64,000 bases of DNA from positions 1-64,000 of the IMG/VR virus record IMGVR_UViG_3300028920_000061; one strand, given 5' to 3'. Source of the DNA: a virus. A model generated the notes under the pieces. The model made no database searches and was not told where the DNA came from. It was given only the letters and a program-made list of their open reading frames with translations. A program made the position numbers and the translations under genes. Positions 3-35,344 of the stretch are shown here, piece by piece (position 1 is the stretch's first letter; each line of letters begins with the position of its first letter).

Positions 3-1166
3 TCAAATGAATTTGTGAGTCATGCTGTCTTTTAAAATAACTTGTTCATAAATCTGATTGTGCGGCTGATAGGTGCAACGTGGACACTTTGACACTATGA
101 TGTCATCGTGCATTTGCCAGTGCGCCTTACTTCCCCACGCCAGCTTGATCTCCATGACATCCTGGCAGTTGTGTATGAGTTCAAGCTTTGGGTCACCACG
201 GCGGTCACAACAAAGACCAAGAGTAAATCCCTCTTTTGTATCTGAAGGTGGTTCGAATACTGCTGTCATGAATATGGCATAACATTTGTCAAAATAATTT
301 GCTCTTTTGAATTGGGAGTCGAATTTGTGAGTTACCCCATAGACGCCGAATTCAGGAGAATCTAATTCTTCTATAGCTACTTCAATTTGATTATTAAAAA
401 CTGTTACCATAACAGGGTCAAATTTGATAGCATTTGGATCTTCATTAATTTGATCCCAAGGGGTTCCGGCCGGTCGGAAGTGGATATTCTTGCACCCAAT
501 CTGTTTAGCTATTTTTGCGGCATCCAACACTTCTTTCATATTGTCCTTATAGAGCAAATACTTAAAACTGACACCGTACGCGGGACGATCGAGGCCAAGT
601 TGAGTACAATGATCTTTCGAATATTGAACCAGCTTACTGATATTTTCTATCACGGGCTTGAACGACGCTTGAAGGCTTTTTCCTCTTTTGTATTTGTCAT
701 AGGTCTGAGGATTTCCGGCATCAACTGAGACGCCAACCCATGTACATTTCGATAACGGCTCAATGAACTTATCTATCAATGTACCATTAGTGACCACACC
801 AACCTCGACACCGTTCTCAACAAGCCTGTCGATAAATTTTCCAGTATGAGGATTGATGAGTGGCTCACCACCCCCAGCAATGCAGACAGCACCTACGCCG
901 TCATTATGATCGTTCCAGTGAGGCAAAAAGTCGGCTATCTGCATCAAAGATTTTTCAGACAGTGACTGGTGGTTATGCTCCATAACATACGAAGCGTTGC
1001 ACCATTCACAATTAAGATTACAGGCGTTTGTGGGATCGACCGTTACAAGTATTGGAGCTGGAATCTTTCCGCCCCCTCTTTGGATTTTTCTCCATTTTTC
1101 TACATGGGTCAACAGCTTATAGCTATTGAACGGGTTCCATCTTTTGTTGTGATTCCATTCTTGCAT
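3..1166 (-). CDS. Radical SAM enzyme with C-terminal SPASM/twitch-like Cys motifs
   Basis: CNLNCEWC (CxxxCxxC), GGGEP, VVTNG and C-terminal LCCD...CPRC motifs. Confidence 0.85.
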   Translation of the reverse strand: MQEWNHNKRWNPFNSYKLLTHVEKWRKIQRGGGKIPAPILVTVDPTNACNLNCEWCNASYVMEHNHQSLSEKSLMQIADFLPHWNDHNDGVGAVCIAGGGEPLINPHTGKFIDRLVENGVEVGVVTNGTLIDKFIEPLSKCTWVGVSVDAGNPQTYDKYKRGKSLQASFKPVIENISKLVQYSKDHCTQLGLDRPAYGVSFKYLLYKDNMKEVLDAAKIAKQIGCKNIHFRPAGTPWDQINEDPNAIKFDPVMVTVFNNQIEVAIEELDSPEFGVYGVTHKFDSQFKRANYFDKCYAIFMTAVFEPPSDTKEGFTLGLCCDRRGDPKLELIHNCQDVMEIKLAWGSKAHWQMHDDIIVSKCPRCTYQPHNQIYEQVILKDSMTHKFI

Positions 1167-6774: not shown

Positions 6775-6866
6775 GCAGGGGTGGTCCAGTTGGCCGGTCC
6801 TTAGATCTATGCTGATATGAGCAATCTAAAGCATGGTGTACGATGGTTCAAGTCCATCCCCCTGCA
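6775..6866 (+). tRNA. tRNA-like element with non-canonical expanded anticodon arm (identity undetermined)
   Basis: Acceptor stem GCAGGGG/CCCCTGC+A; T-arm GATGG-TTCAAGT-CCATC; D-loop AGTTGG; TTAGAT/ATCTAA stem encloses 17 nt with a TGCT/AGCA sub-hairpin. Confidence 0.55.
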
Positions 6867-6894
6867 TTTCTTTTTTTTCCTGAGAGGTAAAAAA

Positions 6895-7968
6895 ATGATC
6901 AAAGGTCTTACGCACAATGTAGACGGTTCACTGAACCATGCTACCCGGTATCGCGGAAAGATATCAACAGGATATGGCCCAGGAGAACCGCCAAACACAA
7001 CCAATCATCCGGTTGCTGCAGGATTTTTCAGAATGCTGAAAGAGGTAACTGAAACACAACAGATTGGTGCGAGCAAAAAAGAGGTTGCCATCAAAAAATG
7101 GATAACCAATTCAGTAGCCCAATCATCTCTTGAAGCGCAAAACAAGAAAAGCAAAACTCCAAGAATATTGGAATTTGTCAGCTTGTTTCATTCCCCGAAA
7201 GATTTTTGGGAAAGTTCGTTGGCAATGTTCTCATCTACTGAAGGGTTATTGTGCCGAAGTGAAGGTGAAGGAACGCCGGCACGATACCTTACCTTTGATG
7301 GAAACAACGAGCGCGTATGGGTGGATAGGGAATTCGATGGTGTTTCAGGATGCCTATATCGAAATTGTCCTGATTTCGCTTCAGGAAAATGCAAACCTCT
7401 TGGTTTGATGAAAGTTTTCCCGACATGTGACTTGTCCACAATGCCGTATCGGTTCGAAACCAGAAGTATTAATACAATCATTGGTATGGAATCGGCCCTG
7501 CAGGACCTGTGGACGCTTCTGAACGCGGCTCACGCAATCAGACAGATGGAAGCCAACAAACAGTTGCCATTTGATGGATTCTTTGGCGCAAAACTGCTTT
7601 TGGTTCATCGCAAAATAAAATCTGGTGGCCGGGAAGTTTTTGTAACTGACCTGTTCCCAAGTGCAGATTTCAATGAGATGGTCATGCAACCTATCAAACG
7701 TGGATTGGATGAAAAGAAGAACAAAGCGCTTCTTGAGGGCGCAGCCGGCTCCGTTAGTCTACTTGAGCAAGCGGCTAATAATATGATTGCCGGTCCAATA
7801 GAGAGTGCTGAATCGTCTATACCTTTGGATGCCTCTGAGGAGAGAGATATCGCTGTCAACTTCGGCGCAGATGCAGAAGAAATTCCTGCTGAAGCGACAA
7901 GCGATGGCAATGCCCCTGAGCCAAACAAAGGGGCAGAAACGCTCATGTCAGAAGGCCCTGGCAAGTAA
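6895..7968 (+). CDS. Recombination-associated protein (Gp3-like/recombination directionality factor-like)
   Basis: RGKISTG...HP...FF N-terminus, C-x4-C-x6-C cluster (CLYRNCPDFASGKCKPLG) and acidic tail; RBS GAGG; recalled resemblance only. Confidence 0.5.
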   Translation: MIKGLTHNVDGSLNHATRYRGKISTGYGPGEPPNTTNHPVAAGFFRMLKEVTETQQIGASKKEVAIKKWITNSVAQSSLEAQNKKSKTPRILEFVSLFHSPKDFWESSLAMFSSTEGLLCRSEGEGTPARYLTFDGNNERVWVDREFDGVSGCLYRNCPDFASGKCKPLGLMKVFPTCDLSTMPYRFETRSINTIIGMESALQDLWTLLNAAHAIRQMEANKQLPFDGFFGAKLLLVHRKIKSGGREVFVTDLFPSADFNEMVMQPIKRGLDEKKNKALLEGAAGSVSLLEQAANNMIAGPIESAESSIPLDASEERDIAVNFGADAEEIPAEATSDGNAPEPNKGAETLMSEGPGK

Positions 7969-24161: not shown

Positions 24162-24565
24162 GGGCCCGCACTTGGGTTTCGATGTGGGTACTGAATCATA
24201 TGTAGCATGCCGAGGACGACGGTTGGCCTCGTTAATCATCCGTCAAAACAACAACTGCCAAAAACGACGGTTGTGCAATGGGCGCTGAGTTCGCAATCCA
24301 GTTCGCTGAGATTTGCAACCTGGCGACCGCACCAGCGCTGGTCTAAAGACCGGCAAACATCACTGATTGACGCCGATATGGCAGTGGTGTAAAACATCGG
24401 CTGGACGGAGAGAGGGTCGAACTCTCTGTTGAGATAAGACTAGAGTTCCAGTATAGCTGCCGTGTTCAGTAGACGGAACTGACAATAGAAATGGACCGGA
24501 TAAGCATGTAGAAGCGTGTGTGGATGTATTTACAGACATCGGTTCGATTCCGATCGGGTCCACCA
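24162..24565 (+). ncRNA. ssrA: tmRNA (transfer-messenger RNA)
   Basis: 5' GGGCCCG pairs with 3' CGGGTCC-ACCA (G3-U70 Ala identity); T-arm ATCGG-TTCGATT-CCGAT; GCATG helix and pk1-like CGAGG/CCTCG; tag frame 24257-24346. Confidence 0.92.
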
Positions 24566-27719: not shown

Positions 27720-28895
27720 ATGAGAATCAAAGCAATAATTGGAAGTGGCATGGGTGATGAAGGTAAGGGTCGCATGACCGAATACTTTTCCGACAGCAAA
27801 TCAATTGTTGTACGATTCAACGGAGGGGCACAAGCTGGTCATACTGTCGTACTTTCTGACTGGGCGCGTCATGTATTTCATCATTTTGGAAGTGGGAGCC
27901 TGCATGGTGCTCAAACATATCTGAGCAAATTTTTTATTGCCAATCCGATGTTCTTCTGTCGAGAGCGTAGAGAACTTCTGGCGAATTTTCAATGTAATCC
28001 TGATGTTTATATCAGTCCGTTTTGTTTTGTTACGACACCATGGGATATGATCATTAATGATCTAACAAATCAGAAAAACCAACATGGTACCTGTGGATTT
28101 GGCATTAACGAGACTGTTGAACGATGTCAGAAGATGACATTAAATGTCAGTACGCTTCAGGCGGACTACTTTGACGACCTTCTCATGCACATCGTCAATG
28201 ACTGGGTTCCGGTAAGAATTGAAGAGCTTGGGCTTGAGCCCGACGCAACATACCGCAAATGGCTTTCAAGCGAGAAGATGATAGACAATTTCAAAGATGA
28301 TGTCAAATCATTTCTCAATTGGGTAACGATAGGAGACCCAAACTTTGACTTTGCCGAACAAGTCATTTTTGAAGGCGCTCAGGGACTCATGCTCGATCAG
28401 AATCATGAAAATTTCCCATATGTTACCAGGTCGAATACGGGAACCGGAAATGTCCGCGAACTGATTGAGGATTTTCATCTTCACGATGAACTGGAAGTGA
28501 CATACGTTACCCGGTCATATGCGACCAGGCATGGGGCCGGACCTTTACTTCATGAGGATAAGACTCTCCAATATGGCGACCCAACAAACGTTCCAAACAG
28601 GTTTCAGGGAAGTCTACGATATGGCCTTCTCGATATAAATCAAATTGTTCATGAAATCAATCAAGATATGGTAAATCTAAACGGCCTGGAGTACAATCCA
28701 AGTATTGCAGTCACCTGCCTGGACCAAAATCCCGGATATTGTATCTGGGATGGTAAGGAAGAGCGCTTGTCACACAGTGAGCTATGCAAGCACGCTCTTG
28801 CGGACAATCTCCAGTTTAGCAAGGCGTATGGGTCCATTGGCCCCAGAACAACTGATCACATGAAAGTGTGGGAAAGGAAAGGGGTGCCAGTATAA
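27720..28895 (+). CDS. purA: Adenylosuccinate synthetase-like protein (divergent PurA)
   Basis: GMGDEGKG, RFNGGAQAGHT, FEGAQG, PYVTRS, YATRHGAGP. Confidence 0.8.
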   Translation: MRIKAIIGSGMGDEGKGRMTEYFSDSKSIVVRFNGGAQAGHTVVLSDWARHVFHHFGSGSLHGAQTYLSKFFIANPMFFCRERRELLANFQCNPDVYISPFCFVTTPWDMIINDLTNQKNQHGTCGFGINETVERCQKMTLNVSTLQADYFDDLLMHIVNDWVPVRIEELGLEPDATYRKWLSSEKMIDNFKDDVKSFLNWVTIGDPNFDFAEQVIFEGAQGLMLDQNHENFPYVTRSNTGTGNVRELIEDFHLHDELEVTYVTRSYATRHGAGPLLHEDKTLQYGDPTNVPNRFQGSLRYGLLDINQIVHEINQDMVNLNGLEYNPSIAVTCLDQNPGYCIWDGKEERLSHSELCKHALADNLQFSKAYGSIGPRTTDHMKVWERKGVPV

Positions 28896-29248
28896 TGGCT
28901 GAAGTAGCGCTGGTCAAAATCACTTGTTGCGCCGAAGGTTACCATGTTCCATTCTGGATATCGGCAGCGCACAATTCGCATCTTCATGATACGCATGAAT
29001 GGTTCTATTGTCCGAATGGTCATCAACAGCATTACCCGCAGGAGACCGACGAAGAAAAATTCAAGCGACTCTACGAATTCGAAAAGAAAAATCGGGTTCA
29101 GGTAGAGCGTAGAGCAGAAAGAAATTACCAGAATTTTGAACAACAGATTCGATATACAGCGGCGCAGAAAGGGCTCGTTACAAAACTTCGCAAACAACTG
29201 AGGGAAAAGAATGAAAGAGATAATCTACCCAAACGGGGAAACGCTTGA
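28895..29248 (+). CDS. Hypothetical protein with Zn-binding motif and coiled coil
   Basis: CC...FYCPNGH; start overlaps the purA stop. Confidence 0.55.
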   Translation: MAEVALVKITCCAEGYHVPFWISAAHNSHLHDTHEWFYCPNGHQQHYPQETDEEKFKRLYEFEKKNRVQVERRAERNYQNFEQQIRYTAAQKGLVTKLRKQLREKNERDNLPKRGNA

Positions 29249-29474
29249 CTTTGAAACAAAAAAAGAGAAGCCAAGTCTTAAAGAACTGCAGAAAGCGGTT
29301 GGGGGGTACATTGAGTTGGTTCAGCTTCTTGATGGCAATATCATGATCATAAATGAAGAAGGGAAGCTCAACGATCTTGAGCCGAACCATGTTGCTACTG
29401 AAAAAGCGTTTCCTAAAGGTGGTGATATTATTGTCGGGAATGCTGTCGTACTTTCACCGGAGTTGATGATCTAA
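29211..29474 (+). CDS. DUF3846-like small phage protein
   Basis: LKELQKAVGGYIE...NEEGKL..L.PN..AT...IVGNAV. Confidence 0.75.
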   Translation: MKEIIYPNGETLDFETKKEKPSLKELQKAVGGYIELVQLLDGNIMIINEEGKLNDLEPNHVATEKAFPKGGDIIVGNAVVLSPELMI

Positions 29475-29698
29475 TGCCAGAAATTATTATAACCATAGCA
29501 GCCAAAGAGCTGGATCATGAGCAGCTTGATGAGGTTCGATATACAATTGAAAAGGTGGCTTCTTTGTTAGCAAATTCAAAGCCACCAAGCTTAAATGAAG
29601 TTATGGCGAATGCGTTAACAGGCACATTACCTGAGATGAGAACTCCAACCATGGTAATGAAAGCCACTTATGATTACATGCGGGGGAATCGTGGGTGA
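29474..29698 (+). CDS. Small hypothetical protein
   Basis: Stop/start overlap with the upstream gene. Confidence 0.5.
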   Translation: MPEIIITIAAKELDHEQLDEVRYTIEKVASLLANSKPPSLNEVMANALTGTLPEMRTPTMVMKATYDYMRGNRG

Positions 29699-29842
29699 AT
29701 ACATGATACCAGCAGATGAGTTTATTGACGGGTTCGAAGACTTCCTTCGTAACTTTGAAGGTAATGTGTCAGCGGAATGTGTAGCCGAAGCGTGGAACAG
29801 GCTGGCTGAAAAATACGAATGGTCTGATAAGTTATTTGCCAA

Positions 29843-30049
29843 ATGAAAAGAAAAAGAATTGATATACCCAATGACGCGGTTCGGTCACTTGACTGGTTAT
29901 GTGAAAAATGTGGCGAATCGCGTCCTGGGTGTATTTTAAGATTAATAGCAATGGGAGTTCGTGAAACAGAACTTTTTCTTCAAAGAAAGAAGTATCAAGA
30001 AGTTATCAATCGGTGGGGAGAACCTACTCGAAAGATGGTCAAAAAATGA
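29843..30049 (+). CDS. Small protein, possible ribbon-helix-helix
   Basis: MKRKRIDIP.D....LD.LC...G.SR...ILRLI pattern. Confidence 0.45.
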   Translation: MKRKRIDIPNDAVRSLDWLCEKCGESRPGCILRLIAMGVRETELFLQRKKYQEVINRWGEPTRKMVKK

Positions 30050-30086
30050 AAGTTTGTAATACAAGGAGTTATGCAAAACTCTAGTC

Positions 30087-30344
30087 ATGCTTTTTATTGA
30101 TCGGAGGTTGCTTGTGTTTCAAATAATGTTAGCATCATTCATAACAGGGTTTGTGTGTTTCTTGCTTGGTTGCTGGTATCAGCAACGCAACAGTAACACT
30201 AAGGTAGGCACTCCTTCCGCATCGCACAACAGGCCAATTATGCAAGTTTGCCCTGTGTGCGGTAGTAGCGTTTCTTTACAACCATCTTTGGGTGCAAATA
30301 TATACGGCTGTTGCAAGTGCGAGTGGTACGGCAAACCAGCATAA
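30087..30344 (+). CDS. Cassette 1 protein: TM helix plus C-terminal Zn ribbon
   Basis: Hydrophobic segment; CPVC...CCKC encoded inside site 1; alternative GTG start at 30114 after GGAGG. Confidence 0.6.
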   Translation: MLFIDRRLLVFQIMLASFITGFVCFLLGCWYQQRNSNTKVGTPSASHNRPIMQVCPVCGSSVSLQPSLGANIYGCCKCEWYGKPA

Positions 30345-30363
30345 GTTGGCCGAACCGTTGTCG
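30224..30363 (+). repeat. attC-like site 1
   Basis: GCACAAC-A-GGCCAATTATGC...GCATAA-G-TTGGCC-GAACC-GTTGTCG. Confidence 0.75.
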
Positions 30364-30400
30364 GCAATATCTGTTGAACCATAATGTAAAGGAGTGCCTA

Positions 30401-30718
30401 ATGGCAAATTTTCGTAATCAACTTACCGACCTTATCAACTGTCACTCGCTAGAGAACGGCAGTGATACTCCAGACTACATCTTGGCAGCATACTTGGATG
30501 GTTGCCGCAAAGAATTTGACGCTGCCGTTAACGCCCGTGCTCGGCACTCCTCAGAACAAGAGGTGTCAACAGAGAAAGCCGACAACAGCGACTATGCGGC
30601 GGCGCTTGAAGTGTGGGGCGAGTTTTTGAACACGTTCGTGATAACAGAAAGCGATAATAAGGTTTTTCCAGAGTGGTGTCGTAAGCGCCTCAATTCGGAG
30701 AAACCGAACTGCGCATAA
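30401..30718 (+). CDS. Cassette 2 protein (ENGSDTPDYILA-type small phage protein plus tail)
   Basis: RBS AAGGAG; stop inside site 2. Confidence 0.7.
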   Translation: MANFRNQLTDLINCHSLENGSDTPDYILAAYLDGCRKEFDAAVNARARHSSEQEVSTEKADNSDYAAALEVWGEFLNTFVITESDNKVFPEWCRKRLNSEKPNCA

Positions 30719-30733
30719 TCGCAAACGTTGTAC
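30580..30733 (+). repeat. attC-like site 2
   Basis: CGACAAC-A-GCGACTATGCG...CGCATAATCGC-AAAC-GTTGTAC. Confidence 0.75.
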
Positions 30734-30767
30734 AAAATTTGTGCGCTTTTGAATTGGAGGTTGCGCC

Positions 30768-30971
30768 GTGAAATATTGTAAGGTTGAATTTATGTGCGAT
30801 TGGTATCCGAACGATACGAGTAAATGCCCTCACCGTGTTTTAGATAAGTACCGTGATTGCATTTACGAAAATATTATTGCCGAAAACTATGCTATTTGTG
30901 GCAGCGAAGAGGCGCAACGGGAAGCTATGGAAGCGCACAAACTTCGTACAACAGGCCAAGTGTCGCAATAG
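30768..30971 (+). CDS. Cassette 3 Cys-rich small protein
   Basis: RBS GGAGG, GTG start; stop inside site 3. Confidence 0.6.
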   Translation: MKYCKVEFMCDWYPNDTSKCPHRVLDKYRDCIYENIIAENYAICGSEEAQREAMEAHKLRTTGQVSQ

Positions 30972-31009
30972 TCAAAGCACTACTGCGCACGTTGGCCGGA
31001 ACGTTGCAG
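30946..31009 (+). repeat. attC-like site 3
   Basis: GTACAAC-A-GGCCAAGTGTCGCA...TGCGCAC-G-TTGGCC-GGAAC-GTTGCAG. Confidence 0.78.
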
Positions 31010-31042
31010 GCCATAGGGGCTGAACCATATTGGAGGTTGGTA

Positions 31043-31324
31043 GTGGTGCAAGTAAAGTGGTTGCAGATATACAAGTGTCGTGACTGTTGGCACCTTGAGC
31101 CGAGTTACGGAACTGGTGATAGGCGTTGCGGATTAACTGGGCGCAAGTGTGAATATGTCCCCGGCGTTGGGTGGTATGAGGATGTGCCGGAATGGTGTCC
31201 ACTACCAACAGCAGAATCGGAGTCAGCCCCAACAGGCCAACAACAGTCCGCAGGAACGCCATTGTCGCAGGATTATGGAATAAATAAACGGTTGGAGCGC
31301 GAACAACAGCGTCCGTGCGGCTAA
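31043..31324 (+). CDS. Cassette 4 Cys-rich protein (C..C...C...PEWCPL)
   Basis: RBS GGAGG, GTG start; stop inside site 4. Confidence 0.6.
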   Translation: MVQVKWLQIYKCRDCWHLEPSYGTGDRRCGLTGRKCEYVPGVGWYEDVPEWCPLPTAESESAPTGQQQSAGTPLSQDYGINKRLEREQQRPCG

Positions 31325-31333
31325 TCGTTGTAG
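31238..31333 (+). repeat. attC-like site 4
   Basis: CAACAAC-AGT-CCGCAGGAACGC...GCGTCC-G-TGCGG-CTAATC-GTTGTAG. Confidence 0.72.
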
Positions 31334-31370
31334 GTCATAGCTGGTGAACCATATTGTAAAGGCGGTCAAC

Positions 31371-31661
31371 ATGGATTTTGAAAATAGAAAGAAGTTGCGC
31401 GAGAAGTACCGAGAAGAAACTGGATTTATGTGGAAGGTTCCACACCCAAAGTTTCTGCTTGCATCAGAGGGGTATGTCATGTGGCTTGAAGACCGCCTTG
31501 AAAAGGCGGAGTCACCAGCAACGAACCCACAACAAACGCAGCCTGCCATTGCTCAACTCTGGGAACGGTATTCTGGTATTATGCCTGACGATACTCTGGA
31601 GAAACGTGCTTGTATTGCTAATTTTGTCAGATATGTTGAGCAACAACAGGCGGGTGCGTAA
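31371..31661 (+). CDS. Cassette 5 protein
   Basis: Y..ETG...YV.WLE pattern; stop inside site 5. Confidence 0.6.
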   Translation: MDFENRKKLREKYREETGFMWKVPHPKFLLASEGYVMWLEDRLEKAESPATNPQQTQPAIAQLWERYSGIMPDDTLEKRACIANFVRYVEQQQAGA

Positions 31662-31671
31662 TCAGTTGTGC
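31527..31671 (+). repeat. attC-like site 5
   Basis: CCACAAC-AA-ACGCAGCCTGCC...CAGGCGGGTGCGT-AATCA-GTTGTGC. Confidence 0.72.
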
Positions 31672-31718
31672 GCAATCAACTGGCGAGTCTACATTGTAGG
31701 CCGCCGAAGGAGGTAAAG

Positions 31719-31922
31719 ATGAAAGGATTTATCGGTTTGATTATTGTGGTTCAAATTGTAGTGTACATCGGGATGGTGTCACTGGTCGGATGGGGCCTCT
31801 GGACTGGCGCAAGATATGTGTCAAAGCACGGCGTAAAATCAATTGTAGAGGAAATGTGGAACGGGTCGGCGGCAGAAAAAGAGGGTTCGCCAGTTGACAA
31901 CACACAACAGCCGCAGCACTAA
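31719..31922 (+). CDS. Cassette 6 small membrane protein
   Basis: RBS AAGGAGG; long hydrophobic helix. Confidence 0.65.
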   Translation: MKGFIGLIIVVQIVVYIGMVSLVGWGLWTGARYVSKHGVKSIVEEMWNGSAAEKEGSPVDNTQQPQH

Positions 31923-31962
31923 ATACTATCGTACTTCGTGCGAGTGCGGCGATACGTTGTGT
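31902..31962 (+). repeat. attC-like site 6
   Basis: ACACAAC-A-GCCGCAGCAC...GTGCGAGTGCGGC-GATAC-GTTGTGT. Confidence 0.75.
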
Positions 31963-31999
31963 GTTCGCTTCGCAAATTTTAACCTTTGGAGTATTGTAA

Positions 32000-32272
32000 A
32001 TGGAAATACATTGTTGCGGTTGCGTTGCTGAAGATATTTGTGAGGCTGTTCAGGGCGATAATAGATGTCTTGATTTCCATAAGGCTTTGGAAGCGGTTAA
32101 AACGTCACACAACAGCGCTAGTACGCAATATTTTCCCGATGAAAAGGAGATGAAACATGCCGCGAGTCAGTGGATTGATTACCTAAGCACTATAGATTCA
32201 ACATACTCTGACTTAGAGCAAACTTTTATACAGGGAGTACGATGGGGTATCGGCCAACTGCCGGGCAAGTAG
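32000..32272 (+). CDS. Cassette 7 protein
   Basis: RBS GGAG; Cys-rich N-terminus; AA...FIQGVRW tail inside site 7. Confidence 0.6.
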   Translation: MEIHCCGCVAEDICEAVQGDNRCLDFHKALEAVKTSHNSASTQYFPDEKEMKHAASQWIDYLSTIDSTYSDLEQTFIQGVRWGIGQLPGK

Positions 32273-32287
32273 TGCGAGACGTTTTGT
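32107..32287 (+). repeat. attC-like site 7
   Basis: ACACAAC-A-GCGCTA...TAGTGC-GAGAC-GTTTTGT. Confidence 0.6.
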
Positions 32288-32318
32288 GAATATGCCGATG
32301 TAAAATGCAAATGGAGGT

Positions 32319-32639
32319 GTGATTAAACATGAAAGCTATAGTATTCGGATCAGAAGGTTGTGTGAAAGTCCAGTCAGCTTTTTAACAATTGGAGGCGGCA
32401 TGCCACATTTCAGCGAAGAAGAAACGATTTCGATAATCAAACGTCTGATTGAGTTAGCAGAAATCAAGGAAGGGCGCCTCAAATCTAAGGAGTTGGCTAC
32501 TTCACCCAACAACCGCTATGCGACGGCGCTTGAGGTGTTGAATGAGTATGAAGAGGATGATTCATATTCTCCCAACGAACCGCCGTTTGAGATATGGCTC
32601 AAGTTGCGCCTAAATGCCGATGGCACTTCGCATAGCTAA
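32319..32639 (+). CDS. Cassette 8 protein
   Basis: RBS GGAGG (alternative start 32400); tail inside site 8. Confidence 0.55.
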   Translation: MIKHESYSIRIRRLCESPVSFLTIGGGMPHFSEEETISIIKRLIELAEIKEGRLKSKELATSPNNRYATALEVLNEYEEDDSYSPNEPPFEIWLKLRLNADGTSHS

Positions 32640-32649
32640 ATCGTTATAG
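32504..32649 (+). repeat. attC-like site 8
   Basis: ACCCAAC-AACC-GCTATGCGA...TCGCATAGC-TAAATC-GTTATAG. Confidence 0.75.
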
Positions 32650-32701
32650 TCAATAAATTTGCCTTCTGATAGTATAGTCAGCTGGTAAGAAAGGAATTAT
32701 T

Positions 32702-32854
32702 ATGCCATTGTATACAGTATCAGCAGATTGTCCAATCACGGAGTACGAAGCTGATGATGAAATGGGTGCTATCGAACAGTATTCTGAGAATTATCGTGTT
32801 AATTACAAGTTTTGTTCAGCAACAAAGTGTGATGAACCCGCTGAAGAAGAATAA
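32702..32854 (+). CDS. Cassette 9 acidic 50-aa protein (not in ORF track)
   Basis: AAGGA RBS; MPLYTVSADCPITEYEADDEMGAIEQYSENYRVNYKFCSATKCDEPAEEE. Confidence 0.55.
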   Translation: MPLYTVSADCPITEYEADDEMGAIEQYSENYRVNYKFCSATKCDEPAEEE

Positions 32855-32872
32855 GGTGGGCAAATTTACAGC

Positions 32873-32940
32873 AACCAACAACCGTATGGTGTTCGTTTCA
32901 CGAATGCGGGTATGCACTTCACCATACTTTCCCGTTATAG
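32873..32940 (+). repeat. attC-like site 9
   Basis: AACCAAC-AACC-GTATGGTG...CACCATAC-TTTCCC-GTTATAG. Confidence 0.75.
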
Positions 32941-32959
32941 GCTGTTTGAGGAGGCTTTT

Positions 32960-33226
32960 ATGGATATAGCAAATTTGACCCGATACACTATTGATTATGT
33001 TCCAGACTCTTGTGATGGTGATTATGTTCAGCATAATGTAAGCAAGGATGGCGAGTATGTCAAATTTGAGGAAGCTATGGAAGCCTCCTCAAACAGCCTA
33101 CAACAGCTAAAGGCTGAAATTTTAGCACTACGCAAAGATGGTGTAGTTGCAGACGATATGTATTGGATTGGTTGGAACATGGCCCTTGAACGTACTGCTG
33201 GTATGCTAAAACAATCAGCCGTTTAG
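32960..33226 (+). CDS. Cassette 10 protein
   Basis: RBS GAGGAGG; DGEYVKFEE motif; GWNMAL tail inside site 10. Confidence 0.65.
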   Translation: MDIANLTRYTIDYVPDSCDGDYVQHNVSKDGEYVKFEEAMEASSNSLQQLKAEILALRKDGVVADDMYWIGWNMALERTAGMLKQSAV

Positions 33227-33238
33227 CAAACATTGTCG
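33098..33238 (+). repeat. attC-like site 10 (ATT instead of GTT)
   Basis: CTACAAC-A-GCTAAAGGCTGA...TCAGCC-G-TTTAGC-AAAC-ATTGTCG. Confidence 0.7.
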
Positions 33239-33272
33239 GTAATCGGTTGTCAAATTATAGAAGGGCGGCAAA

Positions 33273-33584
33273 ATGAAGTTGAAAATGCACTCGTTTGATT
33301 TTGGTGAAAACACTCTGACATTTAGTATTCCCGCTGCTACTATGGAGTCCCATGCTTGGGGTAATGTCCCTGATGGTGTAGATGTAGACCTGTCCAAGGT
33401 GACTAATGACGTTGCCCTTGGGACTAATGGAACAACCGACTCCGCTGGCGCTACCGACAACATCGCAAGGGACGAAATATTGCGCTGTATCACGTACATA
33501 GATAATTATTTATCGGCTGGCAATATTGAATCGGCTCGCAAATGGTGCAACGAAGTACGCGCAATACTATCGCCCGTTGCGTAA
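33273..33584 (+). CDS. Cassette 11 protein
   Basis: ORF with helical tail inside site 11. Confidence 0.6.
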   Translation: MKLKMHSFDFGENTLTFSIPAATMESHAWGNVPDGVDVDLSKVTNDVALGTNGTTDSAGATDNIARDEILRCITYIDNYLSAGNIESARKWCNEVRAILSPVA

Positions 33585-33593
33585 CCGTTGCAC
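33455..33593 (+). repeat. attC-like site 11
   Basis: CGACAAC-AT-CGCAAGGGACGA...TCGCCC-G-TTGCG-TAACC-GTTGCAC. Confidence 0.75.
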
Positions 33594-33621
33594 GCCAGTT
33601 TTGATTTTGGAGATTTGTATT

Positions 33622-33804
33622 ATGTCAATATTGCCTAAACGTTGCAAATGTGGCAGATGGTCGTGGAGTATTCGGCGTAGAAGATTAAACACAGCCTACG
33701 TTGACGAGGAAAGAAATTATATGTACTCGTGTCGCGAGTGCTATGAAGAGGCTTACGAATACTACGCCGAACGATGGGCGGATTATTATGCTAATTGCAT
33801 GTAG
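33622..33804 (+). CDS. Cassette 12 small Zn-finger-like protein
   Basis: RBS GGAG; CKCG...RRRLNTAYVDEERN...CRECY..Y.ERW..YY. Confidence 0.65.
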   Translation: MSILPKRCKCGRWSWSIRRRRLNTAYVDEERNYMYSCRECYEEAYEYYAERWADYYANCM

Positions 33805-33845
33805 GAAGTGCAAAACCAGCATGCAACAACAGCCGGAGGTAAAAA

Positions 33846-34088
33846 ATGCAAGAACAAAGAGAAAAAGCCCATTCGATATTACGCAAGGCATTCGATGAGG
33901 CTGGAATAGCAGATGGGTTTTATTGTGGTGTTTTAATGGATGGAACTGATGTATCCGCGTACAGTGTCGGACGTGAGAATAAGGCAGAGTATTCTAACGT
34001 AGAGCGGTATCAACGCCTTCTCGGTGTTGTTGAATCGTGCAAATACTCATTATTGGTCAAAGCTCACGAAAAGCAGGAAAAATCATGA
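33846..34088 (+). CDS. Small hypothetical protein
   Basis: RBS GGAGG. Confidence 0.55.
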   Translation: MQEQREKAHSILRKAFDEAGIADGFYCGVLMDGTDVSAYSVGRENKAEYSNVERYQRLLGVVESCKYSLLVKAHEKQEKS

Positions 34089-34197
34089 AAGGTTTTGTCA
34101 CCCCACAACAATGATGTTATTTTTTTTCACTTTGTGGAATAGTAATAATATACAGATCTTTTGAAATATCATATATTCTACAACAAAGGAGGAATTC

Positions 34198-34959
34198 ATG
34201 GCAAAGGTCCATGAAATTGTTGCTGTCGAGAAAGACGTGAAGGGCACATTCAATAAGATGCTGGGTGAAACTCGCATGACATTCCTGAAGGGTGAGCATT
34301 TCGATGAGCACCTGAAAGAATACCAGCCGCTCAATGCTGACGATCGTGAACAGCTCGATGCCGAACACAAGCCCATGGCTGACACTGTCCCCAGCAAGTT
34401 GTCATATTTCATGGGGCATATGAAGAGAATGTTCGACTTGGTGATACAGAAAGAAGTATCCAATCTGGACGCCAAAGCTGATGTCACTGTTCAAACAGAC
34501 AGTGGTGATGAAGTTGTTTTGTACGAACAGGCTCCGGTTGCGGCTATTGTTCAGCTTACCAATCTGATGGAAAGCGTTCGGATTCAGGTTCTTTTGAATA
34601 TCCCCACGCTTGATCCGGCAAGATCCTGGGCATCCGACGGAAATCGTCAGGACGTGTTTGTCACCCCCGAAGTCAGACGCGCCAGAACCAAGAAGGTGCA
34701 GGTCCCTATCGAATTGTCGCCGGCTACAGACAGACACCCGGCGCAGGTTCAGCTTGTCACGGAAGATGTGACTACCGGCCACTGGGTGCAGAAGTACTGG
34801 TCCGGTAAGATATCTTCGGCTGACAAGTCAATGATTCTGAAACGAACCGACGCCCTCATAGCAGGCCTCAAAAGAGCCAAGTCGAGGGCTAATGAGAGTG
34901 AGGCGAAGAAGGTTGCCATAGGCGATCGCTGCGCCAAATGGATTTTGACAGGAGAATAA
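34198..34959 (+). CDS. Conserved hypothetical protein (MAK.HEI.AVE / ATDRHPAQV type)
   Basis: RBS AGGAGG; motif pattern recalled from uncharacterised phage and bacterial proteins. Confidence 0.75.
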   Translation: MAKVHEIVAVEKDVKGTFNKMLGETRMTFLKGEHFDEHLKEYQPLNADDREQLDAEHKPMADTVPSKLSYFMGHMKRMFDLVIQKEVSNLDAKADVTVQTDSGDEVVLYEQAPVAAIVQLTNLMESVRIQVLLNIPTLDPARSWASDGNRQDVFVTPEVRRARTKKVQVPIELSPATDRHPAQVQLVTEDVTTGHWVQKYWSGKISSADKSMILKRTDALIAGLKRAKSRANESEAKKVAIGDRCAKWILTGE

Positions 34960-34964
34960 TCAAT

Positions 34965-35344
34965 TGGACGTATACTGAATTCGGGCTGGGGGACCAAATG
35001 AACCCGGCCCCGTCATATTCAGATTCATGTTGATGGGAGTAGTTTTTACGAAACCGCTCATGTTATTGCGTCCTATGTTCAGGTTTATAACCTCAAAAAC
35101 TTTTGATGCCGACACTAACACCTGTAACGAGAGTTCAAATCTCTCCCCGCCATCCAGAAATCAAAAATCATTTTTGGTTTCTCGATGGCGGGTAGTCCAG
35201 TGGTAAGACACAGGCATGATGTTTATGCTCGGTACGTCGATAGTCAAGAGGTGAAAAAAAATTCGTAATGAATACCAACACTTGAACTGTTGATTTATTC
35301 AATAAGTGGCGGGGTGGCAGGATACGTCTGCCCCGCCTTTTTTT
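34965..35344 (+). ncRNA. Putative structured ncRNA containing a circularly permuted tRNA-like (YrlA-like) module at 35121-35214
   Basis: Order is CCTGT, T-arm GAGAG-TTCAAAT-CTCTC, CCCGCCATC, closing hairpin, GATGGCGGG, TA, D-arm GTC-CAGTGGTAA-GAC, ACAGG; no ORF; ends in a terminator. Confidence 0.7.
35308..35344 (+). terminator. Rho-independent terminator
   Basis: GGCGGGG...CCCCGCC followed by T-run. Confidence 0.8.

What the first reader, a model, noticed from the sequence alone, without database searches (positions are those of the whole stretch)
30050..33830. Phage-borne integron-like cassette array with extended end-to-end complementarity
Seen: 11 imperfect hairpins bounded by AAC and GTT, each separating single short ORFs that carry their own RBS. 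The sequence after each GTT is reverse-complementary to the sequence before the NEXT AAC rather than its own. Examples: GTTGTCGGC-aata-TCTGTTGA (30357) with TCAACAGA-gaaa-GCCGACAAC (to 30586); GTTGTACAAAATTTGTGCGCTT (30727) with AAGCGCACAAACTTCGTACAAC (to 30952); GTTATAGGCTGTTTGAGGAGGCTT (32934) with AAGCCTCCTCAAACAGCCTACAAC (to 33104, 23 of 24 paired); GTTGCACGCCAGTTTTG (33587) with CAAAACCAGCATGCAAC (to 33827). Some pairing is visible for all 11 units between sites. Known: this offset pairing is the signature of integron cassettes recombined at G|TT, but canonical R boxes pair over about 7 bp, not 15-24. Inference: a mobile, reorderable mini-gene array in a phage accessory region, moved by an IntI-like recombinase encoded elsewhere in the phage or by the host.
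Basis: partly seen in the sequence, partly recalled or inferred. Interest (0 to 1): 0.93.

Follow-up and report, generated by a model that had tools for sequence, protein, structure and literature searches.

The report
Integron-like gene cassettes in a phage
A marine-sediment phage keeps about a dozen tiny genes as swappable cassettes, each bracketed by its own matching DNA arms and separated by folding hairpins, a design that resembles bacterial integrons but is built differently.

Summary
Window 30068-33827 holds 12 same-strand units that start GTT(G/A)T and end ACAAC. They are separated by 11 imperfect hairpins. Each unit's first 20-46 nt pair with its own last 20-46 nt, not with the neighbouring hairpin's other flank (permutation p<1e-5).

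The same layout, with other genes, occurs in tandem on seven metagenome contigs. These represent at least two other phage backbones. Arms covary and carry a conserved A.A/A.C tandem mismatch. Hairpins are kept by compensatory changes although they encode protein tails.

In the source sample one contig lacks exactly the first unit, with a GTT/GTT junction. In a second study, homology stops at the AAC/GTT points.

My reading is a structure-specific, integron-like cassette system (confidence 0.55). It is not a canonical integron:
- The R-box consensus is not met.
- The bulge and spacer asymmetry is mirrored.
- The 81-kb fragment, about 45% of the genome, encodes no tyrosine recombinase.
- The same arm pair flanks unrelated genes.

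One relative contig encodes a Xer-like recombinase.

This scan's earlier notes report similar integron-like phage arrays on other genomes. I found no printed description beyond phage CALINs (PMC9892861).

The parts
30052..30070 (+). Left border of the array. It holds a short palindrome (TTGTAATACAA) and the GTT at 30068-30070 where unit 0 is joined. It is an attI-like position without a hairpin.
   Evidence: Sequence. The joint 30067->30357 in run X1 shares 3 letters (GTT) on both sides.
30068..30356 (+). Cassette 0. Arms lie at about 30068-30091 and 30207-30230. The ORF runs from 30114 (or 30087) to 30344. Hairpin V0 is 30231-30356. This cassette is present or absent within the source sample.
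   Evidence: In one search the contig with the unit has depth 17.4 and the joined form without it has depth 21.1.
30357..30726 (+). Cassette 1. Arms are 30357-30377 and 30566-30586. The ORF is 30401-30718. Hairpin V1 (30587-30726) encodes the C-terminal tail DYAAAL..RLN.
30727..31002 (+). Cassette 2. Arms are 30727-30748 and 30931-30952. The ORF is 30768-30971. Hairpin V2 is 30953-31002 (50 nt).
31003..31326 (+). Cassette 3. Arms begin at 31003 and end at 31244. The ORF is 31043-31324. Hairpin V3 is 31245-31326.
31327..31664 (+). Cassette 4. Arms begin at 31327 and end at 31533. The ORF is 31371-31661. Hairpin V4 is 31534-31664.
   Evidence: (I16, I7).
31665..31955 (+). Cassette 5. Arms are 31665-31707 and 31866-31908 (43 nt, 72%). 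The ORF is 31719-31922. Hairpin V5 is 31909-31955.
   Evidence: (I2).
31956..32280 (+). Cassette 6. The arms are weak (31956.. and ..32113). The ORF is 32000-32272. Hairpin V6 is 32114-32280 and ends in an atypical GTTTTGT.
32281..32642 (+). Cassette 7. The arms are weak. The ORF is 32400-32639. Hairpin V7 (32514-32642) encodes a tail homologous to that of V1.
32643..32933 (+). Cassette 8. Arms begin at 32643 and end at 32882, and pair only with indels. The ORF is 32702-32854 and stops before the right arm. Hairpin V8 is 32883-32933.
32934..33231 (+). Cassette 9. Arms are 32934-32979 and 33059-33104 (46 nt, 80%) and include the ribosome-binding site and start codon. The ORF is 32960-33226. Hairpin V9 (33105-33231) encodes the tail QQLKAEI..SAV.
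   Evidence: (I1).
33232..33586 (+). Cassette 10. It starts ATT instead of GTT. The arms pair over 10 nt and then again after an indel. The ORF is 33273-33584. Hairpin V10 is 33462-33586.
33587..33827 (+). Unit 11, the last one. Arms begin at 33587 and end at 33827. The ORF is 33622-33804. No hairpin or GTT follows, and the next gene starts at 33846.

Best explanation
This is an array of mobile single-gene cassettes that are exchanged at folded, structure-defined DNA sites, as in an integron, but with a distinct site design.

Each site has these parts:
- a 5-bp stem, ACAAC/GTTGT;
- a one-sided spacer (0-2 nt after AAC, 4-6 nt before GTT, consensus AAAC);
- an inner stem, often with a bulged G;
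- a loop of variable length that can encode the C-terminal tail of the upstream protein.

Outside the AAC/GTT core, each cassette carries two long arms: box 1 of about 8 bp, a conserved 2-nt A.A/A.C mismatch, then box 2 of about 9-10 bp. These arms pair with each other. In an excised circle they would extend the site's stem, and in single-stranded DNA they would bring the two flanking sites together.

Shown here: the architecture, its covariation, its recurrence in other phage contigs, and natural variants whose breakpoints lie at GTT and AAC.

Inferred: a tyrosine recombinase of the Xer/IntI clade, from the missing part of the phage, a co-infecting element or the host, cuts at the conserved triplets of the folded strand. 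Cassettes would enter at the left border (GTT 30068).

Not explained: how the same arm pair comes to flank unrelated genes.
For: 1. Offset complementarity is highly non-random (14.0 vs 4.0, sd 2.9; p<1e-5). The GTT..AAC inverted-repeat scan is specific to the array.
2. DNA folding favours the circle form. A site closed by its own left arm averages -29.0 kcal/mol (top strand) and -31.1 (bottom). As arranged in the array it averages -22.2 and -23.8. With foreign left arms it averages -21.8 and -22.6.
3. The design recurs. A scan with one arm pattern returned 80 loci. Seven of them (28 kb) carry 22 tandem GTT..AAC units at 17 of 22 or better, and 17 of those units were not forced by the pattern. 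The other 73 loci (545 kb) carry 2.
4. The arms covary. Among 28 ungapped units, positions 6, 16 and 17 are Watson-Crick in 28 of 28, with 4 pair types each. Position 10 is A.A in 24 of 28 and position 11 is A.C in 20 of 28.
5. The site consensus over 25 sites is A at +1 after AAC in 22, C at -1 before GTT in 24, and the longer spacer on the 3' side in 25 of 25.
6. In the V9 hairpin family, 8 compensatory pairs are kept while the sequence encodes homologous peptides.
7. The bottom strand folds better: -19.25 vs -17.30 kcal/mol, more stable at 19 of 25 sites (p=8e-4). It has 2.60 G.T pairs against 0.96 on the top strand (p=1e-4). Passages of PMC5027507 report the same bias for attC.
8. In run X1 a contig joins 30067 to 30357, skipping 289 nt with GTT shared on both sides, at depth 21.1. 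A contig that holds unit 0 has depth 17.4. In run X2 (another study), 4 of the 6 loose ends shown lie within 3 nt of an AAC or GTT point.
9. In blastn among the arrays, 17 of 21 blocks that cover a left arm start 0-4 nt before GTT.
10. Relative contig L118 encodes a Xer-like tyrosine recombinase four genes from its array.
Against: - No tyrosine recombinase is present in the 81 kb held, and no other recombinase was found among the 20 large ORFs scanned.
- None of the 12 GTT heptamers fits GTTRRRY.
- The bulge and long spacer sit on the arm opposite AAC on the coding strand. This is the mirror of canonical attC relative to gene direction (PMC5027507 passages).
- The same arm pair flanks at least four unrelated ORFs. 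The arm/cargo borders are not at AAC or GTT, so a second process is needed.
- There is only one clean presence/absence joint. It comes from contigs of the probable source run, and the tool marks 'between: not known'. Only 12 of 72 loose ends were shown.
- No excised circle was seen.
- The arm pattern was not found in IMG/VR. In GTDB genomes it occurred only as single hits consistent with chance.
- Many of the units compared belong to one arm family, so the counts are not independent.
- IntegronFinder's attC model could not be run.
Confidence: 0.55

Rival explanations
1. Modular shuffling by ordinary homologous or short-homology recombination at conserved linker sequences, as proposed for PeSLs in T4-type phages. 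The arms would be conserved boundary sequences at which co-infecting phages swap genes. The hairpins would be regulatory elements. No dedicated site-specific recombinase would be involved.
For: Arms are 85-100% identical between contigs whose cargo genes and hairpins are unrelated. This is what recombination within linkers would leave behind. It also explains the arm/cargo borders, which the site-specific model does not. No recombinase was found in 81 kb. The precedent is PMC2839356 (abstract and section 13 read), where PeSLs mediate shuffling and form mini-circles.
Against: Linkers do not need to be inverted copies of each other, yet left and right arms covary across 28 units and keep a fixed, polar tandem mismatch. 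The unit-0 indel shares only GTT, which is too short for homologous exchange. Only 2 of 12 left arms match a sigma-70-like promoter, and none of the 11 hairpins is a terminator-like site with a T run, so the PeSL definition is not met. The conserved ACAAC / AAAC-GTTGT core and the bulge are not explained.
Confidence: 0.2
2. The pairings serve the RNA. In read-through transcripts, the 5' arm and the arm inside the coding region would form a helix of about 21 bp with an internal loop. That helix would be an RNase III-type processing or translation-control element, and the hairpins would be processing or stabilising structures. Recombination at their edges would be incidental.
For: The helix length (8 + 2-4 + 9-10 bp) with a central internal loop resembles phage RNase III sites (recalled, not tested). 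In units 0 and 9 the arm includes the ribosome-binding site and pairs with a CTCC stretch. In the distal part of some arms the mismatches are G.U-compatible on the sense strand.
Against: The non-coding strand folds better and has 2.6 G.T pairs against 0.96 on the sense strand. The conserved loop is A.A/A.C on the sense strand. No Rfam family matches. An RNA role does not explain the exact GTT/GTT deletion or homology blocks that begin at GTT. Cutting the right arm would sever most ORFs before their stop codon.
Confidence: 0.1
3. Each GTT...AAC unit is a small non-autonomous element with terminal inverted repeats (MITE-like), or an invertible segment (inverton) flipped by an invertase.
For: Units of 158-244 nt (141-336 nt in the relative contigs) flanked by 20-46-nt inverted repeats have the geometry of MITEs and invertons. 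The same repeats carry different cargo.
Against: The repeats differ between units of one array apart from GTTGT, unlike one transposon family. No target-site duplications are visible at the borders (sequence). Most ORFs start inside the unit and end outside it. Arm polarity (left NAAN, right NTGN) matches gene direction in all 28 units, and no strand-changing joint was listed.
Confidence: 0.05

Closest known systems
Integron gene cassettes and attC sites, including CALINs (attC clusters lacking an integrase)
   Same: Single, same-direction genes are separated by imperfect hairpins closed by the conserved triplets AAC and GTT. The start of each cassette is complementary to the sequence before its own AAC. 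Sequence is poorly conserved but structure is. There is an unpaired spacer, a bulged base and a variable terminal loop. The non-coding strand folds better and has more G.T pairs (passages of PMC5027507). A variant lacks the first cassette, with the junction at G|TT.
   Different: The R box is NNRCAAC/GTTGYNN, not RYYYAAC/GTTRRRY. Pairing extends to 20-46 bp with a conserved A.A/A.C mismatch. The spacer is one-sided, and the bulge lies on the other arm relative to gene direction. Eight of the 12 ORFs run through the site, so hairpins encode protein tails. AAC is also an exchange point. Arms are shared between unrelated genes. No integrase is in the 81 kb held. The carrier is a phage.
attC sites and CALINs reported in phage genomes (Qi et al. 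2023, PMC9892861; abstract and section 3.4 read)
   Same: These are clusters of cassette recombination sites without an integrase in virulent or uncharacterised phages, some of them from marine hosts.
   Different: Those sites were called by IntegronFinder/HattCI as canonical attC, with G|TTRRRY junctions confirmed using IntI1, and each CALIN has as few as two sites. Here there are 11-12 sites that do not fit the R-box consensus and have long self-pairing arms. The paper's supplementary tables could not be seen, so overlap with their 17 CALINs cannot be excluded.
PeSLs (promoter-early stem-loops) of T4-type phages (PMC2839356, abstract and one section read; PMC4122927, search listing only)
   Same: These are short structured motifs between small accessory genes in a hyperplastic region of a myovirus-like phage. 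They mark the borders of gene gain, loss and replacement, and can give mini-circles.
   Different: PeSLs are defined by a strong sigma-70-like promoter plus a terminator stem-loop, and they recombine through sequence identity. Here 2 of 12 left arms look promoter-like and no hairpin looks like a terminator. The units have offset complementarity and an AAC/GTT core.
pdif (XerC/XerD) modules of Acinetobacter plasmids (recalled, no call)
   Same: Rows of small gene modules are each flanked by inversely oriented recombination sites used by Xer-type tyrosine recombinases. One relative contig here encodes a Xer-like enzyme.
   Different: pdif sites are 28-bp double-stranded sites of conserved sequence. 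Here the arm sequence varies from unit to unit and only the pairing is kept.

Membership tests
Canonical integron attC site | Imperfect hairpin bounded by the conserved triplets 5'-AAC-3' and 5'-GTT-3' | tested here: met
   Of the 11 window sites, 10 have AAC...GTT and one has AAC...ATT. The same holds at 14 more sites in relative contigs.
Canonical integron attC site | R-box consensus RYYYAAC / GTTRRRY (passage of PMC5027507) | tested here: not met
   None of the 12 window heptamers after G fits GTTRRRY. They read GTTGTCG, GTTGTAC, GTTGCAG and similar. The left side reads NNRCAAC.
Canonical integron attC site | Extrahelical bases on the arm opposite the AAC triplet of the recombined (bottom, non-coding) strand | tested here: not met
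   A bulge lies on the 3' arm of the coding strand in 12 of 25 sites (a G in 8) and on the 5' arm in 3. On the non-coding strand it therefore lies on the same arm as AAC. The rule comes from PMC5027507 passages.
Canonical integron attC site | Bottom strand more stable and richer in G:T mispairs than the top strand | tested here: met
   Energies are -19.25 vs -17.30 kcal/mol, and G.T pairs number 2.60 vs 0.96, over 25 sites. The sites are not all independent.
Canonical integron attC site | Recognised by the IntegronFinder/HattCI attC models | not testable with these tools
   These models are not available here. Rfam has no match.
Complete integron | intI gene (tyrosine recombinase with the IntI-specific insertion) next to attI and the array | tested here: not met
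   PF00589 finds nothing in the 81-kb record, while the control genomes all respond. The record is about 45% complete, so a distant gene is not excluded.
CALIN | Two or more attC sites called by the attC model, with no integrase nearby | tested here: inconclusive
   There are many sites and no integrase, but whether the attC model would call them could not be tested.
PeSL (T4-type phages) | Sigma-70-like early promoter joined to a terminator stem-loop | tested here: not met
   Promoter-like matches occur at 2 of 12 left arms (30358, 33247). None of the 11 hairpins is listed as terminator-like with a T run.
MITE / inverton | One repeat family at many sites with target duplications, or both orientations present | tested here: not met
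   Arm sequences differ between units. No duplication is visible at the borders. No strand-changing joints were listed, though that evidence is from contigs only and is weak.

The most novel reading that the evidence does not exclude
This is a separate, phage-borne family of structure-specific recombination cassettes with three distinguishing properties.

1. Every cassette carries long self-pairing arms with a fixed A.A/A.C mismatch. These arms fold its two ends, and so the two neighbouring sites, together.
2. Both edges of the folded site (AA|C and G|TT) serve as exchange points.
3. Because reading frames run through the AAC edge into hairpins that encode about 40-residue tails, recombination joins protein front halves to alternative back halves in frame. 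This would be protein domain shuffling by site-specific recombination, driven by a Xer-like enzyme that lacks the integron-integrase insertion.
Probability: 0.3. Interest if true: 0.9.

Novelty: new variant of a known kind. Interest (0 to 1): 0.8.

Why it matters
Integrons are the textbook case of recombination sites recognised by shape rather than sequence. They are thought of as bacterial, and how their cassettes arise is unknown.

A second design of folded-site cassettes, carried by phages, would matter in three ways:
- It would show that this way of stockpiling and swapping small genes evolved, or diversified, outside the IntI/attC rules used by current search tools.
- It would give phage accessory regions, where anti-defence and host-takeover genes sit, a defined exchange mechanism.
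- It would offer sites that can lie inside coding sequence, so that proteins are rebuilt from interchangeable halves. Three unrelated front halves share the DYAAAL..RLN tail here.

It would also provide new sequence-free recombination sites for engineering.

Tried and rejected
**Close relatives of the phage**
- blastn of 29000-35000 against 50,697 phage records gave no match.
- Protein-anchored scans of IMG/VR with the 253-aa neighbour gene, the PurZ-like gene and the L118 recombinase gave nothing.
- Two DNA patterns from the arms also gave nothing in IMG/VR. The window's own record may be left out of these collections.

**Loci with the unit-1 protein family**
Eighty IMG/VR loci that encode this family have no such arrays. 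The gene family is therefore widespread without the architecture.

**C-terminal tail search**
A word-based search with the tail of unit 7 found only the protein itself.

**Bacterial genomes**
- The arm pattern gave 47 single hits in GTDB species genomes, which is about what chance predicts, and none were paired.
- The motif AAACGTTGTNNNMAAT was no more frequent than its reversed control in 191 Flavobacteriales genomes.
- The 30 loci fetched from those genomes hold no inverted-repeat units.
- The host clade suggested by earlier scan notes was therefore not confirmed for this flavour of site.

**Strand bias of mismatches in the arms**
Over all columns there were 22 A.C against 13 G.T on the coding strand. 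Outside the conserved loop the counts were 8 against 7. The arms alone show no clear polarity. The polarity seen comes from the loop and from the hairpins.

**Promoter and terminator reading:** rejected.

**Closing hairpin after the last AAC:** none found.

**Cargo function**
Pfam and PHROGs name none of the 10 ORFs tested. There are only weak DUF7248/phrog_2401 hits for unit 5, and unknown-function phrogs for unit 1.

**RNA evidence**
No RNA holder was listed by the look-up of sequencing runs.

**Unresolved joints**
The joints 30070->32945, 29865->31622 and 30604->30708 could not be interpreted. The tool marks 'between: not known' and their sides are 25-46 nt. The joint 32107->33100 (depth 2, side 22, one extra letter) comes from a related variant, not from this genome.

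**Limits of the literature check**
Supplementary files of papers were not consulted. The CALIN list of PMC9892861 may bear on the novelty claim. The statement that this design is not in print rests only on searches.

Full report
**What the window is**

The window is the first 64 kb of an 81,022-bp IMG/VR virus record that CheckV rates about 45% complete. It has no close relative among 50,697 deposited phages. It encodes:
- a PurZ-like adenylosuccinate synthetase, under 40% identical to those of Vibrio and Rhizobium jumbo phages;
- a tmRNA;
- an MCM-like helicase, an SNF2 helicase, nucleases and a baseplate J protein.

Two public runs, both labelled marine sediment metagenome, hold the stretch. 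One of them is probably the source of the record.

**The observation**

Reading 29800-34100 and listing ORFs shows 12 short units on the + strand. Each begins GTT(G/A)T, except one that begins ATT, and each ends ACAAC.
- Unit starts: 30068, 30357, 30727, 31003, 31327, 31665, 31956, 32281, 32643, 32934, 33232, 33587.
- Unit ends: 30230, 30586, 30952, 31244, 31533, 31908, 32113, 32513, 32882, 33104, 33461, 33827.

Between successive units lie 11 stretches of 47-167 nt that fold as imperfect hairpins. Every unit holds one ORF with a ribosome-binding site just after the left arm. Eight of the 12 ORFs read through the right arm and the AAC and stop inside the following hairpin. The ORFs of units 2 and 5 stop within 20 nt after the AAC, and those of units 8 and 11 stop before it.

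It extends the 32934/33104 pair to 46 nt and the 31665/31908 pair to 43 nt.

A unit's first 25 nt match the reverse complement of its own last 25 nt with a mean score of 14.0. Against other units' ends the mean is 4.0 (sd 2.9). Across its own hairpin the mean is 2.5. None of 100,000 permutations reached the observed total.

A purpose-written scan for GTT...AAC inverted repeats gave these results:
- In the 81-kb record, 5 hits at 18 of 22 or better, all inside the array.
- In 878 kb of unrelated phage loci, none at that level.
- In 353 kb of bacterial control loci, eight hits at 17-19.

Units 0, 6, 7 and 10 pair weakly or only with indels.

**Anatomy of a site**

Over 25 sites (11 in the window, 14 in relatives) the consensus is ...NNRCAAC | A G C ... 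inner stem ... G C N A A A C | GTTGT....
- The base after AAC is A in 22 of 25.
- The base before GTT is C in 24 of 25.
- The unpaired spacer is 0-2 nt on the 5' side and 4-6 nt on the 3' side in all 25.
- After a first inner stem of about 6 bp, a base is bulged on the 3' arm in 12 of 25 sites (a G in 8) and on the 5' arm in 3.
- The rest of the hairpin varies in length and often encodes about 40 residues.

The arms outside the core have their own layout: GTTGT plus about 3 variable pairs, a 4-nt segment, then 9-10 pairs. In the 4-nt segment the left arm reads NAAN and the right arm, read as its reverse complement, reads NTGN.

In 28 units that align without gaps:
- Positions 6, 16 and 17 are Watson-Crick in 28 of 28, with four pair types each.
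- Position 10 is A.A in 24.
- Position 11 is A.C in 20.

The covariation shows that pairing, not sequence, is kept. The fixed mismatch gives every unit the same polarity relative to its gene.

**Relatives**

The protein of unit 1 has an N-terminal part that belongs to a widespread family of roughly 65-residue phage proteins. The 80 IMG/VR loci that encode this family lack the architecture.

One database protein (P0008) has the same front half and the same peptide, STEKADN, that is encoded by the right arm. Its tail is different.

I scanned JGI and ENA metagenome contigs with the unit-1 arm pattern. Five contigs held the pattern twice in inverted orientation, 172-210 nt apart. The repeat scan then showed tandem units of the same design on seven contigs: L087, L088 (7 units in 4.1 kb), L107, L109, L118, L131 and L143. 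That is 22 hits at 17 of 22 or better, of which 17 were not forced by the pattern. The other 73 loci gave 2 hits.

L118 places its array between a DUF2800 nuclease gene and SSB/DNA polymerase A genes. This backbone differs from that of the window.

**Mosaic structure**

I aligned the unit-1 family from the window and five contigs. Only two blocks are shared: the left arm through the ribosome-binding site, and about 27 nt ending at ACAAC. Between them lie four unrelated ORFs. The hairpins on either side also differ.

In an all-against-all blastn, shared blocks are mostly arms of 20-60 nt at 85-100% identity. Of 21 blocks that cover a left arm, 17 begin 0-4 nt before GTT. Most of these belong to one arm family, so they are not independent.

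The hairpins form families of their own:
- The tail DYAAAL..RLN follows three unrelated front halves (window units 1 and 7, and L088 unit 1466).
- QQLKAEI..SAV follows at least two (window unit 9 with its homologue L143 207, and L088 unit 153).
- L088 2097 and L109 293 share a front half (83%) but differ in the tail.

The AAC is read in three different frames, and each hairpin family keeps its own frame. In the QQLKAEI family, eight pairs of the inner stems changed on both sides without breaking, the bulged G is conserved, and the peptide is kept.

**Population evidence (Logan contigs, not reads)**

In the probable source run X1:
- One contig of depth 17.4 covers 30041-30386 with unit 0.
- Another, of depth 21.1, joins 30067 to 30357. 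It skips exactly 289 nt, from GT to CC, with three letters (GTT) that fit both sides.
- A third continuation has depth 8.9.
- These depths add up to roughly the flanking depth of 42-46.

The first cassette is thus present in only part of the population, and its borders are the two GTTs. This is what integron-type insertion at the array's head would give.

In run X2, from another study, contigs match only pieces of the array. Of the six loose ends shown for X2, four lie at 30231, 30356, 31326 and 33235, within 3 nt of an AAC or GTT point. The other two lie at the outer ends of arms. Sixty further loose ends were not shown.

A low-depth contig places a unit-6-like right arm directly before a V9-like hairpin, so AAC is also a border.

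**Which strand?**

With DNA parameters, the site plus its own left arm (the form expected in an excised circle) is 7 kcal/mol more stable than the form in the array or with foreign arms.

The non-coding strand is the more stable one at 19 of 25 sites, and it carries 2.6 G.T pairs against 0.96. Passages of PMC5027507 report the same bias for attC (1.24 vs 0.39). They also state that the recombined bottom strand has its extrahelical bases on the arm opposite the AAC triplet.

Here the bulge and the long spacer lie opposite AAC on the coding strand. The asymmetry is therefore mirrored relative to gene direction. I cannot decide which strand is cut. The GTT/GTT deletion argues for the non-coding strand, and the AAC borders argue for the coding strand. 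Both may be used.

**The enzyme**

No PF00589 domain is present in the 81 kb, and no recombinase was found among the large ORFs scanned.

L118 encodes a 323-residue tyrosine recombinase four genes from its array.
- It scores below the cut-offs of XerA, XerC and integron-integrase models.
- Its best solved relative is archaeal XerA.
- It matches Vibrio IntI4 in two stretches. This fits absence of the IntI-specific insertion, but I did not verify it residue by residue.

It may simply be that phage's integrase.

Earlier notes of this scan describe similar arrays with Xer-like recombinases in Bacteroidota phages and chromosomes. My test of that lead was negative for this flavour of site: a site motif in 191 Flavobacteriales genomes was not above its control, and the fetched loci had no units.

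**Comparison with what is known**

Phage genomes with attC sites and CALINs have been reported and tested with IntI1 (PMC9892861, abstract and section 3.4 read). Those are canonical sites with G|TTRRRY junctions.

PeSLs of T4-type phages mark gene-swap borders and give mini-circles (PMC2839356, abstract and one section read). They are promoter-terminator motifs. Here only 2 of 12 left arms look like promoters and no hairpin looks like a terminator.

Rfam has no matching family.

Five full-text searches found no description of cassettes with long self-pairing arms, a fixed mismatch and translated hairpins. Supplementary files could not be consulted.

**Verdict**

The feature is real and recurrent, and natural variants break at its conserved triplets. 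It works like an integron cassette array but fails two defining tests of canonical attC, and it has no known integrase.

I rate it a new variant of a known kind, with interest 0.8. The main open points are the enzyme, the strand that is cut, and how identical arms come to flank unrelated genes.

Noticed in passing
window 27720-28895 (+): A PurZ-like adenylosuccinate synthetase. Its best matches, at 37-40% identity, are annotated as 2-aminooxy adenylosuccinate synthetase in Vibrio and Rhizobium jumbo phages. The phage may replace adenine with 2-aminoadenine, which would change the stability of all the A-containing pairs and mismatches discussed here.
   Followed up: partly
window 24162-24565 (+): A phage-encoded tmRNA (Rfam 141 bits; ARAGORN) whose predicted tag is long and ends ...APALV, not the usual ALAA-type end.
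   Followed up: no
window 6775-6866 (+): ARAGORN calls a 92-nt tRNA with anticodon CTA (labelled Pyl), which would be a possible amber suppressor. It overlaps the start of the Gp3-like ORF 6817-7968. Four of the 12 cassette ORFs stop at TAG. In unit 11, read-through of TAG would continue through the right arm.
   Followed up: no
window 30378-30382 and relatives; distal ends of both arms: Just outside box 2, the coding strand often reads GAGTC, GAACC or GACTC at both arms (a GANTC-like pentamer). A GGAG stretch precedes many right arms inside the ORFs.
   Followed up: no
L118 8952-9923 (-): A Xer-like tyrosine recombinase (P0013) on a metagenome contig that also carries a cassette array, a DUF2800 nuclease, an Enc34-type SSB and a family A DNA polymerase.
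   Followed up: partly
window 6817-7968 (+) and 3-1166 (-): A Gp3-like 'recombination directionality factor-like' domain protein and a radical SAM protein lie in the early region. Neither is linked to the array by any test here.
   Followed up: no
window 32330-32386 (+): A tiny 18-codon ORF with its own ribosome-binding site lies inside unit 7, ahead of the main ORF that starts at 32400.
   Followed up: no
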